The translations under genes and the position numbers were made by a program. Positions 3,530 to 22,071 of a DNA stretch of 64,000 nt are shown piece after piece (positions within the stretch are counted from its first letter, which is position 1; every line of letters starts with the position of its first letter). This stretch comes from Escherichia coli (lineage in GTDB: Bacteria; Pseudomonadota; Gammaproteobacteria; Enterobacterales; Enterobacteriaceae), in the NCBI RefSeq assembly GCF_003334385.1, contig NZ_QOWN01000002.1. One strand, written 5' to 3'. The notes below the pieces were generated by a model, which worked only from the letters and a program-made list of their open reading frames with translations, searched no databases and was not told the DNA's origin.

Positions 3530-5824
3530 TCAGAGCGCCTGGGTAAAGGTACGTGAAATAACATCCTGTTGCTGTTCACGGGTCAGTGCGTTGAAGCGCA
3601 CGGCGTAGCCAGAGACACGGATTGTCAGGTTAGGATATTTTTCCGGGTGCTCGATGGCATCCAGCAGCATTTCCCGATTCATTACGTTGACGTTGAGGTG
3701 TTGACCGCCTTCGACATCCGCTTCGTGGTGGAAATACCCATCCAGCAGGCCGACAAGGTTGGTTTTACGTACTGGATCTTCTTTGCCCAGCGCCGCAGGA
3801 ACGATTGAGAAGGTGTACGAGATCCCATCTTTGGCGTAGGTGAACGGCAGTTTCGCCACCGACGTCAATGAGGCCACGGCACCTTTGCGGTCACGACCAT
3901 GCATCGGGTTAGCGCCCGGCGCGAACGGTGTTCCGGCGCGACGACCGTCCGGCGTATTACCGGTTTTCTGGCCGTACACCACGTTAGAAGTGATAGTCAG
4001 AATCGACTGGGTAGGGACGGCGTTGCGATAGGTTGGCAGCGCTTTAATTTTCTTCATAAAGCGTTCAACCAGGTCGCAGGCAATGCTGTCTACGCGCTCG
4101 TCGTTGTTGCCGTACTGCGGATATTCACCGTCGATTTCAAAGTCCACCACCAGGCCGTTTTCGTCACGGATTGGTTTCACGCGGGCATATTTGATGGCAG
4201 ACAGGGAGTCCGTCGCCACCGACAGGCCCGCGATGCCGCATGCCATAGTGCGATAGACATCACGATCGTGCAGCGCCATCAGCGAAGCTTCGTAGCTGTA
4301 CTTGTCGTGCATGTAGTGAATGATATTCAGCGCGCTGATGTACTGCACCGCCAGCCAGTCCATGAAGTGATCGAGGCTGTCCATCACTTTGTCGTAATCC
4401 AGCACGTCGTCCATCAGCGGTGCTGTTTTCGGCCCGACCTGAATCTTCAGCTTCTCGTCCACCCCGCCGTTAATTGCGTAGAGCAGCGTTTTCGCCAGGT
4501 TAGCGCGTGCACCAAAGAACTGCATTTGCTTACCAATCACCATTGGGCTGACGCAGCAGGCAATCGCGTAATCGTCGCTGTTGAAGTCAGTACGCATCAG
4601 ATCGTCATTTTCATACTGCAAGGAAGAGGTGACGATCGACACCTGCGCGGCATATTTTTTGAAGGCAATCGGTAATTCTTCCGACCAAAGAATGGTCAGG
4701 TTAGGTTCCGGTGCCGGCCCCATAGTGTGCAGGGTGTGCAAATAGCGGAAGGAGTTTTTGGTCACCAGCGTACGACCGTCCAGCCCCATCCCGCCGATCA
4801 CTTCCGTCGCCCAGATTGGGTCGCCGGAGAACAGCGAATCAAATTCCGGTGTACGCAGGAAGCGTACCATACGGATCTTCATGATGAAGTGATCGATCAG
4901 TTCCTGTGCCTGCTGCTCATTGAGTACGCCAGCTTTAAAGTCGCGCTCAATGTAGATATCGAGGAACGATGCCGTGCGGCCCAGCGACATCGCGCCGCCA
5001 TTTTGCGATTTCACTGCCGCCAGATAAGCGAAGTAGAGCCACTGCACCGCTTCCTGCGCATTCTGCGCCGGGCGAGAGATATCAAAGCCATATTTCGCCG
5101 CCATTTCCTGAATCTGCAACAGCGCATGACGATGCTCTGCCAGCTCCTCACGCAGACGGATGGTGGCTTCCAGATCCTCGCCTTTTTCCAGACGAGACTG
5201 GAGATCGGCAAATTGCAGTTCGCGTTCACGTACCAGATAACTGATGCCATACAGCGCTACGCGGCGATAGTCACCGATAATGCGCCCACGGCCATAGCCA
5301 TCTGGTAAACCGGTCAGCACGCCAGATTTACGGCAGCGCAGCATATCCGGTGAGTAAACATCAAATACGCCCTGGTTATGGGTTTTACGCAGATCGGTAA
5401 ACAGATATTCAAATTCACTGTCCATTTCTCGGCCATAGGCGTGGAATGAACTTTTAATCATATTAATGCCACCGAACGGGTGTAGCGCACGTTTCAACGG
5501 CGCATCCGTTTGCAGGCCAACAATTTTTTCCAGCGGCTGGTTAATATATCCCGCATCATGAGCGGTAATTGTGGTGGCAATATTGGTATCGAAATCAACC
5601 GGCGCGTGGGTTGCATTTTCGATACGGATGCCTTCCATTACTTTTTCCCACAATTCCGTGGTGGCAGGCGTCGCTTCGGCGAGGAAAGATTCATCGCCTT
5701 CATACGGTGTATAGTTATGTTGAATAAAATCGCGGACATTAATTTCGTTTTTCCAGTCCGTACCTTTAAAGCCAAGCCATGCGTCGGCGTACAGCTTATC
5801 GCTGGTATCAATATCTACCTTCAT
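3530..5824 (-). CDS. tdcE: 2-ketobutyrate/pyruvate formate-lyase TdcE (glycyl radical enzyme), 764 aa
   Basis: 764-aa ORF ending ...[29 protein letters not shown], the glycyl-radical C-terminal motif of PFL-type enzymes; tdc operon context. Confidence 0.95.
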
Positions 5825-13225: not shown

Positions 13226-13254
13226 ATGAATAAAGCGCACTCAACAATCTGAAA

Positions 13255-13621
13255 CCCGCCGGAACGGTTTATTACGTACATCAGGTAAAACTGACCGATA
13301 AGCCGCTTTCTTTTGGGTATAGTGTCGTGGACAGTCATTCATCTTTCTGCCCCTCCAAAAGTAAAAACCCGCCGAAGCGGGTTTTTACGTAAAACAGGTG
13401 AAACTGACCGATAAGCCGCTTTCTTTTGGGTATAGTGTCGTGGACAGTCATTCATCTTTCTGCCCCTCCAAAAGCAAAAACCCGCCGAAGCGGGTTTTTA
13501 CGTAAACCAGGTGAAACTGACCGATAAGCCGCTTTCTTTTGGGTATAGCGTCGTGGACAGTCATTCATCTTTCTGCCCCTCCAAAAGCAAAAACCCGCCG
13601 AAGCGGGTTTTTACGTAAATC
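13255..13621. repeat. About 3.25 direct tandem copies of a 113-bp unit downstream of rnpB; each carries a terminator-like hairpin and a copy of the rnpB 3' end
   Basis: cccgccgaagcggg recurs at 13255, 13368, 13481 and 13594 (period 113); each unit repeats caggtgaaactgaccgataagccg...gtcgtggacagtcattcatct, the 3' terminal rnpB sequence. Confidence 0.85.
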
Positions 13622-13998
<377 letters not shown>

Positions 13999-18687: not shown

Positions 18688-20259
18688 ATGGCCAACATCG
18701 AAATCAGACAAGAAACGCCAACTGCGTTTTATATAAAAGTTCACGACACAGATAATGTGGCAATTATTGTTAATGATAATGGCCTGAAAGCAGGAACGCG
18801 TTTTCCGGATGGGCTGGAATTAATTGAACATATTCCCCAGGGGCATAAAGTCGCATTGCTGGACATTCCGGCTAATGGTGAAATTATTCGTTATGGCGAA
18901 GTGATTGGTTACGCCGTGCGTGCAATCCCACGCGGAAGCTGGATCGACGAATCAATGGTTGTACTACCGGAAGCGCCGCCGTTACACACGCTGCCACTGG
19001 CAACCAAAGTCCCGGAACCCTTACCGCCGCTGGAAGGATACACCTTTGAGGGCTATCGCAATGCCGATGGCAGCGTGGGCACCAAAAACCTGCTCGGTAT
19101 CACCACCAGCGTCCACTGTGTGGCAGGCGTGGTGGACTATGTAGTAAAAATCATTGAACGCGATCTGCTACCGAAATACCCGAACGTCGATGGCGTGGTG
19201 GGGCTGAATCATTTGTACGGTTGTGGCGTGGCGATTAACGCACCGGCGGCAGTTGTACCTATCCGTACCATTCACAATATTTCGCTGAATCCTAACTTTG
19301 GCGGCGAAGTAATGGTGATTGGCCTGGGTTGTGAAAAGTTGCAGCCTGAGCGCCTGCTGACTGGAACGGATGATGTGCAAGCTATTCCAGTAGAAAGCGC
19401 CAGCATTGTCAGTTTGCAGGATGAAAAGCATGTCGGTTTTCAGTCCATGGTCGAGGATATTTTGCAGATCGCCGAACGCCATCTACAAAAACTGAATCAA
19501 CGGCAGCGAGAAACCTGCCCGGCTTCAGAACTGGTCGTTGGTATGCAGTGCGGTGGCAGCGATGCGTTTTCTGGTGTAACGGCAAACCCGGCGGTTGGCT
19601 ATGCGTCTGATCTACTGGTGCGCTGCGGCGCAACGGTGATGTTTTCAGAAGTAACGGAAGTGCGTGACGCGATCCATCTGCTGACACCACGCGCAGTGAA
19701 CGAAGAGGTCGGCAAACGGCTGCTGGAGGAGATGGAGTGGTACGATAACTATCTCAATATGGGAAAAACCGACCGCAGCGCCAACCCTTCGCCGGGCAAC
19801 AAGAAAGGCGGTCTGGCAAACGTGGTAGAGAAGGCACTCGGCTCCATTGCTAAATCGGGTAAAAGCGCAATTGTTGAAGTGCTGTCGCCCGGTCAACGCC
19901 CGACTAAACGCGGATTAATTTACGCCGCGACGCCAGCCAGCGATTTTGTCTGTGGCACGCAACAGGTGGCTTCGGGTATCACAGTGCAAGTGTTTACGAC
20001 CGGTCGTGGTACGCCGTACGGCCTGATGGCGGTACCCGTCATTAAAATGGCAACCCGCACCGAGCTGGCGAACCGCTGGTTTGATTTAATGGATATTAAT
20101 GCGGGCACCATCGCTACCGGCGAAGAAACTATTGAAGAGGTGGGCTGGAAGTTGTTCCACTTTATTCTCGACGTCGCCAGCGGGAAGAAGAAAACCTTCT
20201 CGGATCAATGGGGGCTGCATAACCAGCTGGCGGTGTTTAACCCGGCACCGGTGACCTGA
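18688..20259 (+). CDS. garD: Galactarate dehydratase GarD, 523 aa
   Basis: 523-aa ORF (SAF N-terminal domain, altronate/galactarate dehydratase family) divergent from garP. Confidence 0.95.
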
Positions 20260-20282
20260 TTTCTTTTGGAACGTCCCTCGCA

Positions 20283-20310
20283 AAACATGGCCTTAGTGCC
20301 ATGTTTTTAT
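20283..20310 (+). terminator. Rho-independent terminator after garD
   Basis: aacatggc-cttagt-gccatgtt hairpin followed by TTTTAT. Confidence 0.55.
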
Positions 20311-20407
20311 TGTTTAAAGCCCCCACGTCCATTAATAATGCATTTGCATTACCTTAGTTCAAGCTTATAATTTGAGCAGAAAACAGGCTGTAAAAGGACA
20401 GTGAATC

Positions 20408-20743
20408 ATGCCCGCTAATGCTCGCTCTCACGCTGTACTGACCACTGAATCAAAGGTCACGATACGCGGACAAACAACTATCCCCGCGCCAGTGCGTGAG
20501 GCCTTAAAACTGAAGCCAGGCCAGGACAGCATTCATTACGAAATTCTGCCTGGTGGGCAAGTATTTATGTGCCGACTGGGAGATGAACAGGAGGATCATA
20601 CTATGAATGCATTTTTGCGTTTTCTGGATGCAGATATCCAGAACAACCCGCAAAAAACTCGTCCATTCAACATTCAACAAGGAAAGAAACTTGTCGCTGG
20701 CATGGACGTCAACATTGATGATGAGATTGGCGACGACGAATAA
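20408..20743 (+). CDS. prlF: Antitoxin PrlF (SohA), AbrB/SpoVT-fold, 111 aa
   Basis: 111-aa ORF with acidic C-terminus (…DDEIGDDE); stop TAA overlaps the yhaV ATG (TAATG). Confidence 0.9.
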   Translation: MPANARSHAVLTTESKVTIRGQTTIPAPVREALKLKPGQDSIHYEILPGGQVFMCRLGDEQEDHTMNAFLRFLDADIQNNPQKTRPFNIQQGKKLVAGMDVNIDDEIGDDE

Positions 20744-21207
20744 TGGATTTTCCACAAAGGGTTAATGGTTGGGCGCTATATGCTCATCCCTGTTTTCAGG
20801 AAACCTACGACGCTTTAGTTGCCGAAGTCGAGACATTAAAGGGAAAAGATCCTGAAAATTATCAGAGAAAAGCCGCCACAAAGTTATTGGCGGTAGTCCA
20901 TAAAGTGATTGAGGAGCATATCACGGTCAATCCATCATCACCGGCATTCCGTCATGGCAAGTCGTTAGGCTCTGGGAAAAATAAAGACTGGTCACGGGTA
21001 AAATTTGGTGCTGGTCGTTATCGTCTCTTCTTTCGTTATAGTGAAAAAGAGAAAGTCATCATTCTGGGATGGATGAACGATGAAAACACTCTGCGCACCT
21101 ACGGTAAAAAAACAGATGCCTATACCGTATTCAGCAAAATGTTAAAAAGAGGACATCCTCCTGCCGACTGGGAAACCCTCACCCGAGAAACAGAAGAAAC
21201 CCATTGA
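20743..21207 (+). CDS. yhaV: Ribonuclease toxin YhaV (RelE/ParE superfamily), 154 aa
   Basis: 154-aa ORF translationally coupled to prlF. Confidence 0.9.
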   Translation: MDFPQRVNGWALYAHPCFQETYDALVAEVETLKGKDPENYQRKAATKLLAVVHKVIEEHITVNPSSPAFRHGKSLGSGKNKDWSRVKFGAGRYRLFFRYSEKEKVIILGWMNDENTLRTYGKKTDAYTVFSKMLKRGHPPADWETLTRETEETH

Positions 21208-21261
21208 TGGTGTTCACAATGCCCGCCGAACGCATTCGTGTTGACCAGCGGGCATCCTTTC

Positions 21262-22071
21262 TCACTCCCCGACCAGAATCACTTCAACCCCAGCCTTTCG
21301 CAGTCCTTCCAGGCTATCCGCAGGAATGCCTTCATCAACAATGATCATGTCGATACGTTGAGTATCAATGATCTTATGTAAACTGGAACGATTGAACTTA
21401 CTGGAATCGGTGACCACGATGATCCGTTCCGCAACTTCGCACATCCGACGGTTTAAACGAGCTTCATCTTCATTATGTGTGCTGACGCCGCGCTCCAGAT
21501 CGATCGCATCTACACCAAGAAACAGCATATCGAAGTGGTAATTTTGCAGCGATTGCTCAGCCTGATCGCCGTAAAAAGATTGCGACTGACGGCGCAAATG
21601 CCCGCCGGTCATCAGCAGCTCAACGCCTTCCGCTTCCAGCAACGCATTAGCCACGTTCATACCGTTGGTCATCGCAATTACGTCAGTGTGCTTGCGCATC
21701 AGACGAGCAATCTCAAAAGTGGTGGTCCCGGAATCGAGGATAACCCGATGACCTGGCTGAATCAACTCAACGGCAGCTTTCGCAACGCTGCGTTTCATCG
21801 CGGTGTTCAGTGCGCTTTTATCTTCCACTGATGGCTCGACTGACGGCGTCGTGCTATCGCAGATCAACGCGCCACCATAGGCACGCACAGCGATCCCCTG
21901 CTTTTCCAGAAACGCCAGATCGTTGCGGATCGTCACAGTAGATACGCCATACAATGCCGACAGATCGTTAACCTGCACACTCCCTTGCTGTCGCAGACGC
22001 TGAATGATCTGTTCTCGTCGCTCGCTGGTGCCAGTCACTCGCTTCTCACCTGAAGCGTCGGTATTACTCAT
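21262..22071 (-). CDS. agaR: DeoR-family repressor AgaR, 269 aa
   Basis: N-terminal HTH (…[39 protein letters not shown]…) plus DeoR C-terminal sugar-binding domain. Confidence 0.95.

What the first reader, a model, noticed from the sequence alone, without database searches (positions are those of the whole stretch)
20408..21207. prlF-yhaV type II toxin-antitoxin pair wedged between gar and aga sugar-acid loci
A 111-aa acidic-tailed antitoxin (PrlF, AbrB/SpoVT fold) is translationally coupled (TAATG overlap) to a 154-aa RelE/ParE-superfamily ribonuclease toxin (YhaV). This is a known module, so it is not novel, but it is the only addiction or defence-like element in the window and its insertion between two catabolic clusters is typical of accessory TA cassettes.
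Basis: established knowledge. Interest (0 to 1): 0.25.

Follow-up and report, generated by a model that had tools for sequence, protein, structure and literature searches.

The report
Known prlF-yhaV toxin-antitoxin cassette
This is the well-studied E. coli prlF-yhaV toxin-antitoxin gene pair, identical to the laboratory K-12 version, so it is ordinary; comparison with other genomes shows it is a roughly 1 kb self-regulated cassette that was inserted between two sugar-utilisation gene clusters and is now present in about 95% of E. coli.

Summary

The insertion idea holds. At least 21 species in 10 or more genera have garD next to agaR with no TA, and about 190 E. coli genomes (for example E2348/69) carry a short TA-less spacer. 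The cassette is about 97% identical between E. coli and E. albertii, against about 88% for the flanks. It is nevertheless in 94.7% of complete E. coli genomes, so it is near-core in this species.

A 16-nt palindrome over the -35 box is conserved even in prophage-borne homologues and is the likely operator. prlF also contains a TTCAACA x2 slippage site, which is expanded in 0.4% of E. coli genomes.

Verdict: already known, low interest.

The parts
20282..20307 (+). Hairpin A: the garD intrinsic terminator (10-bp stem, 6-nt loop, followed by a T-run). It forms the left edge of the inserted segment.
   Evidence: Found by the terminator scan and the inverted-repeat search. The RNA fold is -12.4 kcal/mol with z = -3.3. 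The same hairpin occurs in TA-positive L006 and L018 and in the TA-less spacer of Pseudocitrobacter faecalis. In L006 it is duplicated on both sides of the cassette.
20336..20351 (.). Palindrome TAATGCA-TT-TGCATTA overlapping the -35 box; the probable PrlF-YhaV operator.
   Evidence: Inverted repeat I2. It is unique in the 64 kb window. It is invariant in the syntenic L006, L018 and E. albertii loci and in the Citrobacter copy and the Yersinia prophage copy, where the surrounding DNA is unalignable. A review reports that the complex binds a palindrome in the promoter upstream of prlF (PMC7781912). Binding at this exact site is inferred.
20343..20371 (+). Sigma-70-type promoter: -35 TTTGCA (20343-20348), 17-nt spacer, -10 TATAAT (20366-20371).
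   Evidence: It matches 10 of 12 consensus positions. The -10 box is conserved at the same spacing from the palindrome in all homologous loci. The transcription start was not determined here.
20394..20398 (+). Shine-Dalgarno-like AAGGA, 9 nt upstream of the prlF ATG.
   Evidence: Read directly from the sequence.
20408..20743 (+). prlF (sohA): a 111-aa antitoxin with an N-terminal AbrB/MazE-like DNA-binding segment (about residues 15-39) and an acidic C-terminal tail.
   Evidence: Same accession as K-12. The C-terminal D/E tail is conserved in alignment A4.
20666..20679 (+). TTCAACA x2 tandem heptamer inside prlF. It is the slippage site of the prlF1-type 7-bp duplication.
   Evidence: The recurrent adaptive duplication is reported in PMC7686311 and PMC12107188. 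Natural copy-number variants appear.
20743..21207 (+). yhaV: a 154-aa RelE/ParE-fold ribosome-dependent endoribonuclease toxin. Its start overlaps the prlF stop by 1 nt.
21219..21255 (.). Hairpin B (arms ATGCCCGC / GCGGGCAT) in the 54-bp gap between the yhaV and agaR stop codons. It is the probable remnant of the native Escherichia garD-agaR spacer hairpin and a candidate bidirectional terminator.
   Evidence: RNA folds of -21.2 kcal/mol (+ strand) and -24.3 kcal/mol (- strand), z about -2.4 to -2.5. The arm sequence and its position 6 nt before the agaR stop match the E2348/69 spacer hairpin ATGCCCGATA...TATCGGGCAT. Homology between the two hairpins is inferred.
20261..21265 (+). Segment absent from the TA-less E. 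coli allele, where 69 unrelated bp take its place. The core insert is about 20261-21218.
   Evidence: Breakpoint mapping against E2348/69. AgaR is 269 aa here and 274 aa in the TA-less allele.
20153..21312 (.). Tract of about 97% identity to E. albertii, set in a background of about 88%. It is the footprint of interspecies exchange of the cassette.
   Evidence: Sliding identity and mismatch positions. dS is 0.013 for prlF and 0.10 for yhaV, against 0.60 for garD and 0.66 for agaR.

Best explanation
Window 20336-21207 is the canonical, intact prlF-yhaV type II toxin-antitoxin operon of E. coli.

A sigma-70 promoter whose -35 box lies under a 16-nt palindrome drives a bicistronic mRNA. prlF is translated first, and yhaV is translationally coupled to it through the TAATG overlap. 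PrlF binds YhaV through its C-terminal part. Its N-terminal AbrB/MazE-like segment, within the PrlF-YhaV complex, binds the palindrome and represses the operon. When PrlF is depleted or loses its C-terminus (the prlF1 frameshift at the TTCAACA repeat), YhaV is freed. YhaV is a RelE-fold ribonuclease that cleaves mRNA on the ribosome, with a preference for a G just downstream of the cut, and so slows translation and growth.

Shown here: the genes, the overlap, family membership, identity to K-12, the RelE-like predicted fold, conservation of the promoter and palindrome, and purifying selection. Taken from papers on the same proteins: toxicity and rescue, ribosome dependence, the PrlF2-YhaV4 complex, promoter binding and the link to Lon. 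Inferred: that 20336-20351 is the operator, and that the C-terminal tail is the neutralising part.

In evolutionary terms, the promoter, operator and two genes form a self-contained cassette of about 1 kb. It was inserted into an ancestrally short garD-agaR spacer, spread between Escherichia lineages by recombination in the flanking genes, and is now nearly fixed in E. coli.
For: - ORFs and overlap.
- Family assignment: Pfam PF15937 and PF11663 and the NCBIfam PrlF equivalog.
- Identity to K-12: same RefSeq annotation and same protein accessions as MG1655.
- Promoter and palindrome. The palindrome is unique in the window and invariant across syntenic, plasmid-like and prophage homologues.
- The 1-4 nt gene overlap is conserved in L006, L009 and L011.
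- Selection: dN/dS is 0.08 for prlF (against L006) and 0.09 for yhaV (against E. albertii).
- Literature: rescuable toxicity and codon-phased cleavage with a 5' bias (PMC8546651); A-site cleavage and membership of the BECR/RelE family (PMC11980606); the heterohexamer binding palindromic promoter DNA (PMC7781912); the prlF 7-bp duplication raising operon expression and changing antibiotic resistance (PMC7686311) and its link to Lon (PMC12107188).
- Insertion history.
Against: - No sequence-level link to RelE could be reproduced, so superfamily membership rests on a predicted fold.
- The PrlF fold could not be modelled.
- The primary paper (Schmidt et al. 2007) is not in the held library, so the mapped operator could not be compared with my palindrome.
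- One table records conflicting reports on whether YhaV depends on the ribosome.
- The physiological trigger for toxin release is listed as unknown.
Confidence: 0.93

Rival explanations
1. The pair is a domesticated physiological regulator and not an addiction module. The chromosomal copy is kept because basal PrlF/YhaV activity tunes translation, Lon-dependent proteolysis and envelope or porin expression, and it plays no part in post-segregational killing. This overlaps with the main explanation in mechanism and differs only in why the pair is retained.
For: The pair is near-fixed in E. coli at 94.7% of genomes. It is under purifying selection. A yhaV deletion costs 4-8% of growth rate in rich and minimal medium and shows sign epistasis with phoQ (PMC5960147). 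The prlF frameshift is repeatedly selected and lowers ompF and sodB mRNA and RcsA-dependent genes (PMC7686311 and PMC12107188).
Against: About 190 E. coli genomes, and most related genera, do without it at the same site. yhaV loss-of-function mutants also sweep in chemostats. Homologues sit on plasmids and prophages, as expected of a selfish module.
Confidence: 0.3
2. The pair is an anti-phage (abortive infection) or anti-plasmid defence module. Infection depletes PrlF, and YhaV then shuts down translation.
For: A 63%-identical homologue lies in a Yersinia prophage between the lysis genes and KilA-N/terminase, a typical moron position. A Citrobacter homologue lies next to an ANT antirepressor gene. 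There is one phage record and there are 328 plasmid records with homologues. Members of the RelE/ParE superfamily are discussed as defence toxins (PMC11980606).
Against: Neither protein matches any PADLOC model. The window has no defence-island neighbours, only catabolic genes on both sides. No paper I read reports a phage phenotype for this pair.
Confidence: 0.1
3. The pair is a decaying, non-functional remnant of an old insertion.
For: Chromosomal TA loci often decay. Some genomes carry IS-mediated deletions or frameshifted prlF.
Against: Both ORFs are full length and identical to the K-12 proteins shown to be toxic and rescuable. dN/dS is about 0.08-0.09. The promoter and operator are intact and conserved.
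Confidence: 0.02

Closest known systems
E. coli K-12 PrlF(SohA)-YhaV type II toxin-antitoxin system (Schmidt et al. 2007; Pfam PF15937 + PF11663)
   Same: The protein accessions, gene order, 1-nt overlap, upstream region and genomic position (garD / agaR) are identical.
   Different: Nothing within the module differs. It is the same locus in another strain background.
RelBE / HigBA / YefM-YoeB (RelE/ParE or BECR-fold ribosome-dependent mRNases)
   Different: There is no detectable sequence similarity. YhaV is about 60 residues longer, with an extra N-terminal hairpin and C-terminal helices. It pairs with an AbrB/MazE-type antitoxin and not a RelB or Phd/YefM type, and the reported stoichiometry is PrlF2-YhaV4.
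MazE / AbrB / SpoVT swapped-hairpin antitoxins
   Same: PrlF residues 15-39 carry the SKVTIRGQTTIPAPVREALKLKPG motif, which aligns to AbrB-family chains and to the MazE_antitoxin and AbrB profiles.
   Different: All these matches fall below curated thresholds. The partner toxin has a RelE fold, not a MazF fold. The fold itself could not be confirmed here.
Plasmid- and prophage-borne prlF-yhaV homologues (Salmonella, Pantoea and Roseobacter-group plasmids; Yersinia and Citrobacter prophage regions)
   Same: They share the two-gene architecture, the overlap, and the TAATGCA(T/A)TTGCATTA palindrome with the -10 box.
   Different: Protein identity is 45-67% and they sit on mobile replicons. The window copy is chromosomal, has no mobility genes or flanking repeats, and is nearly fixed in the species.

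Membership tests
PrlF-YhaV type II toxin-antitoxin system | Two small co-directional genes, antitoxin first, overlapping or abutting | tested here: met
   The ORFs are 20408-20743 and 20743-21207 with a TAATG overlap. The same layout is seen in L006, L009 and L011.
PrlF-YhaV type II toxin-antitoxin system | Antitoxin matches the PrlF family models above threshold | tested here: met
   PF15937 at E = 7e-42, full length. NF007429 equivalog at 170 bits against a cut-off of 125.
PrlF-YhaV type II toxin-antitoxin system | Toxin matches the YhaV family model | tested here: met
   PF11663 at E = 9e-54, covering model positions 1-137 of 138. NCBIfam has no hit for it. RefSeq names the gene yhaV.
PrlF-YhaV type II toxin-antitoxin system | Toxin inhibits growth alone and is neutralised by the cognate antitoxin | not testable with these tools
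   Reported for the MG1655 proteins (rescuable toxicity, PMC8546651). The window proteins carry the same accessions.
PrlF-YhaV type II toxin-antitoxin system | Autoregulation through a palindromic operator in its own promoter | tested here: inconclusive
   A palindrome over the -35 box is present, unique in the window and conserved across distant homologues. Binding and repression were not testable, and the primary paper is not held.
RelE/ParE (BECR-fold) toxin superfamily | Compact alpha/beta RelE-type fold | tested here: met
   [not shown]
RelE/ParE (BECR-fold) toxin superfamily | Detectable sequence or profile homology to RelE-family members | tested here: not met
   phmmer and profile hmmsearch against the PDB return no RelE-type chain. 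hhalign of the YhaV profile against E. coli RelE gives a probability of 0.2. The families of this superfamily are defined by fold, so this does not exclude membership.
RelE/ParE (BECR-fold) toxin superfamily | Ribosome-dependent mRNA cleavage and a basic/Tyr active site | not testable with these tools
   The literature supports it, with one conflicting early report listed. Invariant R85, K87, R92, R98, R118, Y120 and Y127 are candidate active-site residues, but they were not mapped onto RelE.
AbrB/SpoVT/MazE swapped-hairpin DNA-binding domain (PrlF N-terminus) | Match to domain models or solved members; predicted swapped-hairpin fold | tested here: inconclusive
   TIGR01439 at 27.1 bits against a cut-off of 28.3. 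PF04014 at E = 0.0023. PDB AbrB chains at E = 0.4-0.6. The AF2 monomer has pLDDT 43 and is unusable.
Accessory / horizontally moving cassette | Absent from the orthologous site in relatives, polymorphic within the species, and phylogenetically incongruent with its flanks | tested here: met
   At least 21 species have garD-agaR adjacent with no TA. A TA-less allele occurs in about 190 E. coli genomes. Cassette dS is 0.01-0.10 against 0.60-0.66 for the flanks between E. coli and E. albertii.
Accessory / horizontally moving cassette | Own mobility machinery or flanking repeats | tested here: not met
   The window has no flanking direct repeats and no integrase or transposase nearby. Only the Pseudocitrobacter-like locus L006 has a duplicated 26-nt hairpin on both sides.
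Catalogued anti-phage defence systems (PADLOC) | Match to a defence-system protein model | tested here: not met
   Neither protein matches any model at E <= 0.01.

The most novel reading that the evidence does not exclude
The TTCAACA repeat inside prlF (20666-20679) may be a natural contingency switch and not merely a laboratory mutation hotspot. Copy number modulo 3 decides whether the acidic, presumably toxin-neutralising, tail of PrlF is made. Copy numbers of 2, 5, 8 and 11 keep the reading frame and insert FNIQHST units. Other copy numbers replace the tail.

Natural alleles run from 3 copies to more than 30. They are rare in complete E. coli genomes (19 of 5106) but appear frequent among Shigella sonnei entries in the protein database. 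Such a switch would let lineages reversibly tune YhaV activity, and with it porin expression and antibiotic tolerance. No paper in the held library links prlF to VNTR or natural repeat variation.
Probability: 0.15. Interest if true: 0.5.

Novelty: already known. Interest (0 to 1): 0.15.

Why it matters
The finding as stated does not change anything: prlF-yhaV is a textbook E. coli type II toxin-antitoxin pair. The comparative results have modest value.

- They give a clean worked example of how a self-contained TA cassette (operator, promoter and two genes, about 1 kb) entered a conserved convergent gene junction, spread between species by recombination in the flanks, and became nearly fixed.
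- They identify natural cassette-free strains, such as E2348/69, that could serve as isogenic test beds.
- They point to a conserved 16-nt candidate operator.
- They show that neither protein has a solved structure.
- They flag natural expansion of the heptamer behind the clinically relevant prlF1 resistance mutation.

Tried and rejected
- **Sequence route to RelE.** phmmer and profile hmmsearch of YhaV against PDB sequences returned only chance hits or nothing. hhalign of the YhaV profile against E. coli RelE gave a probability of 0.2. I had first checked the RelE sequence against PDB entries 4fxe and 4v7k. The fold route was needed instead.
- **NCBIfam for YhaV.** No model matched.
- **PADLOC.** No hits.
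- **PrlF structure.** The AF2 model from 17 sequences had pLDDT 43, so I did not send it to a fold search.
- **Primary paper.** PMC2699681 is not held.
- **L014.** A PrlF-like hit at 66% identity after garD looked like a different cassette in the same slot. The ORF list shows rsmI, lpoA and yraN directly downstream, so it is a truncated prlF at a large deletion.
- **L004 (strain HH97).** The 1028-bp junction looked like an independent internal deletion, but the junction is a run of C and G and is probably an assembly artefact.
- **Vertical inheritance since a common ancestor with the L006 lineage.** I considered this because the divergence of TA and flanks is similar there. I rejected it as the general explanation after the 80-species survey and the E. 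albertii dS contrast.
- **Broad literature query for a prlF VNTR.** It was swamped by unrelated MLVA papers. Targeted queries found nothing relevant.

Full report
**1. Observation**

The window contains a 111-aa ORF at 20408-20743 and a 154-aa ORF at 20743-21207, both on the + strand. The first ORF's TAA stop shares its last base with the second ORF's ATG, which is the TAATG overlap. The first protein ends in NIDDEIGDDE. Upstream lies garD (18688-20259, +). Downstream, converging on the pair, lies agaR (21262-22071, -).

**2. Identity**

- PrlF matches Pfam PF15937 (E = 7e-42, full length) and the NCBIfam PrlF equivalog (170 bits, cut-off 125).
- YhaV matches Pfam PF11663 (E = 9e-54, model positions 1-137 of 138).
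- Megablast of 20260-21261 against 5,426 complete E. coli genomes finds records that are 100% identical and annotated prlF and yhaV.
- The protein accessions in such a record (WP_001307405.1 and WP_000347273.1) are the same as in K-12 MG1655. Experiments on the K-12 proteins therefore apply to these exact sequences.

**3. The fold claims**

- At sequence level there is nothing. phmmer and a 55-sequence profile find no RelE-type chain in the PDB, and hhalign of the profile against E. coli RelE gives a probability of 0.2.
- An AlphaFold2 model built on that alignment is confident (mean pLDDT 92.4, pTM 0.89).
- Foldseek's top 42 PDB matches are all RelE/ParE-type toxins (PfiT, HigB2, RelE, RelE1, RelE2, YoeB, ParE).

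The test is passed. Membership of the superfamily is visible only in the fold. YhaV is about 60 residues larger than RelE.

For PrlF, the AbrB/SpoVT claim has only sub-threshold sequence support over residues 15-39 (TIGR01439 at 27.1 bits against a cut-off of 28.3; PF04014 at E = 0.0023; PDB AbrB chains at E about 0.4). My monomer model was unusable (pLDDT 43). That outcome is expected for an obligate swapped-hairpin dimer with a disordered tail, but it leaves the fold unconfirmed here.

**4. Regulatory anatomy**

- A hairpin followed by a T-run at 20282-20307 terminates garD.
- A good sigma-70 promoter follows: TTTGCA, 17-nt spacer, TATAAT, at 20343-20371.
- Its -35 box lies under the palindrome TAATGCA-TT-TGCATTA at 20336-20351. 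This palindrome occurs nowhere else in the window.
- In loci from another genus that carry the pair at the same site (L006, L018; background identity about 77%), TAATAATGCATTTGCATTACC and the -10 box are unchanged at the same spacing.
- The palindrome and -10 box are also kept in a Citrobacter copy in a mobile-looking region (next to a phage antirepressor gene) and in a Yersinia prophage copy (there a perfect TAATGCAATTGCATTA), where nothing else upstream aligns.

The palindrome therefore travels with the gene pair. I infer it is the PrlF-YhaV operator. Binding was not tested, and the primary paper could not be read.

The 54-bp gap between yhaV and agaR holds a second hairpin at 21219-21255.

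**5. Is it an inserted, accessory cassette?**

Four lines of evidence bear on this.

(a) *Frequency.* 5136 of 5426 complete E. coli genomes (94.7%) hold at least 80% of the segment, almost always once and on the chromosome. In this species it is near-core.

(b) *A TA-less allele.* I used a probe joining the last 400 nt of garD to the last 400 nt of agaR, and a junction probe taken from strain E2348/69. These show an allele in which window 20261-21265 (1005 bp) is replaced by 69 unrelated bp with its own hairpin. In that allele AgaR ends ...VGDHASSL (274 aa) instead of ...VGE (269 aa). From the identity bands, about 190 genomes carry this allele at the native locus. That figure is derived from band counts, not counted directly. 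The two AgaR ends differ by a 15-nt in-frame indel, and hairpin B resembles the E2348/69 hairpin in its arms and position. The alien DNA is therefore probably only about 20261-21218, running from just after the garD stop to just after the yhaV stop (inference).

(c) *Outgroups.* I spent the single genome-collection scan on the GarD C-terminus, so that loci would be returned whether or not they hold the TA. Of 80 species, at least 21 from 10 or more genera have agaR directly after garD, separated by 45-103 bp carrying a lineage-specific hairpin. These include Salmonella arizonae, Citrobacter, Enterobacter, Klebsiella, Raoultella, Kluyvera, Lelliottia, Pluralibacter, Phytobacter, Kosakonia and Pseudocitrobacter faecalis. 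Only E. coli, E. albertii and one Pseudocitrobacter MAG have prlF-yhaV there, plus a metagenomic contig, L006. Adjacency is ancestral and the cassette is derived.

(d) *Incongruence.* Between E. coli and E. albertii, dS is 0.60 for garD and 0.66 for agaR, but 0.013 for prlF and 0.10 for yhaV. Identity is about 88% in the flanks and rises to about 97% across window 20153-21312 only. That is a cassette-sized recombination tract, so the cassette was exchanged between these species long after they split.

More distant homologues sit on 328 plasmid records, 175 of them predicted conjugative (the top three rows are mislabelled chromosomes of 4.8-4.9 Mb). One sits in a phage record and others in prophage contexts.

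The window copy has no flanking repeats or mobility genes, and it is nearly fixed.

*Unresolved detail.* Hairpin A of the E. coli cassette is the same hairpin that forms the TA-less spacer of Pseudocitrobacter faecalis. In L006 it is duplicated on both sides of the cassette (4538-4563 and 5477-5502). This suggests that the cassette entered the spacer in a Pseudocitrobacter-like lineage and reached Escherichia together with the left-hand hairpin. However, the E. coli and L006 cassettes are only about 77% identical, so any such transfer is old and its direction is not proven.

**6. Function and selection**

- Both genes are under purifying selection. dN/dS is 0.08 for prlF against L006 and 0.09 for yhaV against E. 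albertii.
- Neither protein matches PADLOC.
- RefSeq annotation of the matching records across the window lists tdc, gar, aga, yra fimbrial genes, rsmI through rimP, and no other TA or defence gene.

I rank the canonical autoregulated type II TA mechanism at 0.93. Why the chromosome keeps it (selfish persistence, physiological tuning or phage defence) remains open. The evidence leans towards a physiological role, because deletion costs 4-8% of growth rate (PMC5960147) and prlF mutations are repeatedly selected.

**7. Found in passing: a heptamer repeat in prlF**

The recurrent adaptive prlF mutation is a duplication of TTCAACA (PMC7686311; PMC12107188). The window has two tandem copies at 20666-20679.

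Odd-length PrlF proteins in the public collection are copy-number variants at this site:

- In-frame alleles with 5, 8 and 11 copies insert FNIQHST units.
- Other copy numbers shift the frame and replace the acidic tail.
- Some Shigella sonnei entries have 10 or more such units.

A probe that reads out copy number shows that 19 of 5106 complete E. coli genomes have 3 or more copies. Eleven have 3 copies, one genome each has 4, 5, 6, 7 and 9, and three have 12 or more. The held literature does not connect prlF with VNTR or natural repeat variation. This is the basis of the "novel case". It does not affect the window, which has the standard allele.

**8. Verdict**

The feature is already known and identical to K-12. 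Interest is 0.15.

Noticed in passing
window 20666-20679 (inside prlF): TTCAACA x2 is a variable-number tandem repeat in nature. PrlF variants of 118, 125 and 137 aa are in-frame expansions that add FNIQHST units. Variants of 130-151 aa are frameshifted. Some Shigella sonnei proteins have 10 or more units. In complete E. coli genomes, 19 of 5106 have 3 or more copies. Only the single 7-bp duplication (prlF1) appears in the papers I found.
   Followed up: partly
L003 1901-1969 (E. coli E2348/69), replacing window 20261-21265: This TA-less allele of the garD-agaR junction is 69 bp long, has its own hairpin (ATGCCCGATA...TATCGGGCAT), and gives an AgaR that is 5 residues longer (274 aa...VGDHASSL). 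About 190 complete genomes carry it. These are natural cassette-free strains that could be used for isogenic experiments.
   Followed up: yes
[not shown]
   Followed up: partly
L006 4538-4563 and 5477-5502: In the Pseudocitrobacter-like syntenic locus, the prlF-yhaV cassette is bracketed by a direct repeat of the 26-nt terminator hairpin (96% identical). Pseudocitrobacter faecalis, which has no TA, has a single copy at the same place. The repeats could mediate precise loss. The E. coli copy lacks the right-hand repeat.
   Followed up: partly
L002 6001-6877 (strain EC23HZZ201); L014 4950-5405: Some genomes lack the pair because of large deletions and not because they carry the TA-less allele. 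In one, an IS1 sits directly after garD and everything from prlF through the aga cluster to yraH is missing. In another, a truncated prlF abuts rsmI.
   Followed up: partly
literature / PDB: A review figure labels PDB 2KHE as the 'YhaV monomer' (PMC7781912). The PDB copy describes 2KHE as RelE from Thermus thermophilus, and no PDB chain matches YhaV or PrlF by sequence. Neither protein appears to have a solved structure.
   Followed up: yes
window about 13252-13644 (between yhaC and rnpB): BLAST of the window against the annotated locus gave off-diagonal matches shifted by 113 nt at 94-96% identity. This indicates a tandem array of units of about 113 bp next to rnpB.
   Followed up: no
L004 2110-2135 (strain HH97): After 70 nt of prlF the record runs into a stretch of C and G (gaccccccccccccggggcccccctcccc) and then agaR. 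This is probably an assembly artefact and not a real deletion allele.
   Followed up: partly
rows H13-H15: Three 'plasmid' records in PLSDB that carry yhaV are 4.8-4.9 Mb long and are evidently mislabelled chromosomes. They slightly inflate the count of E. coli plasmid hits.
   Followed up: no
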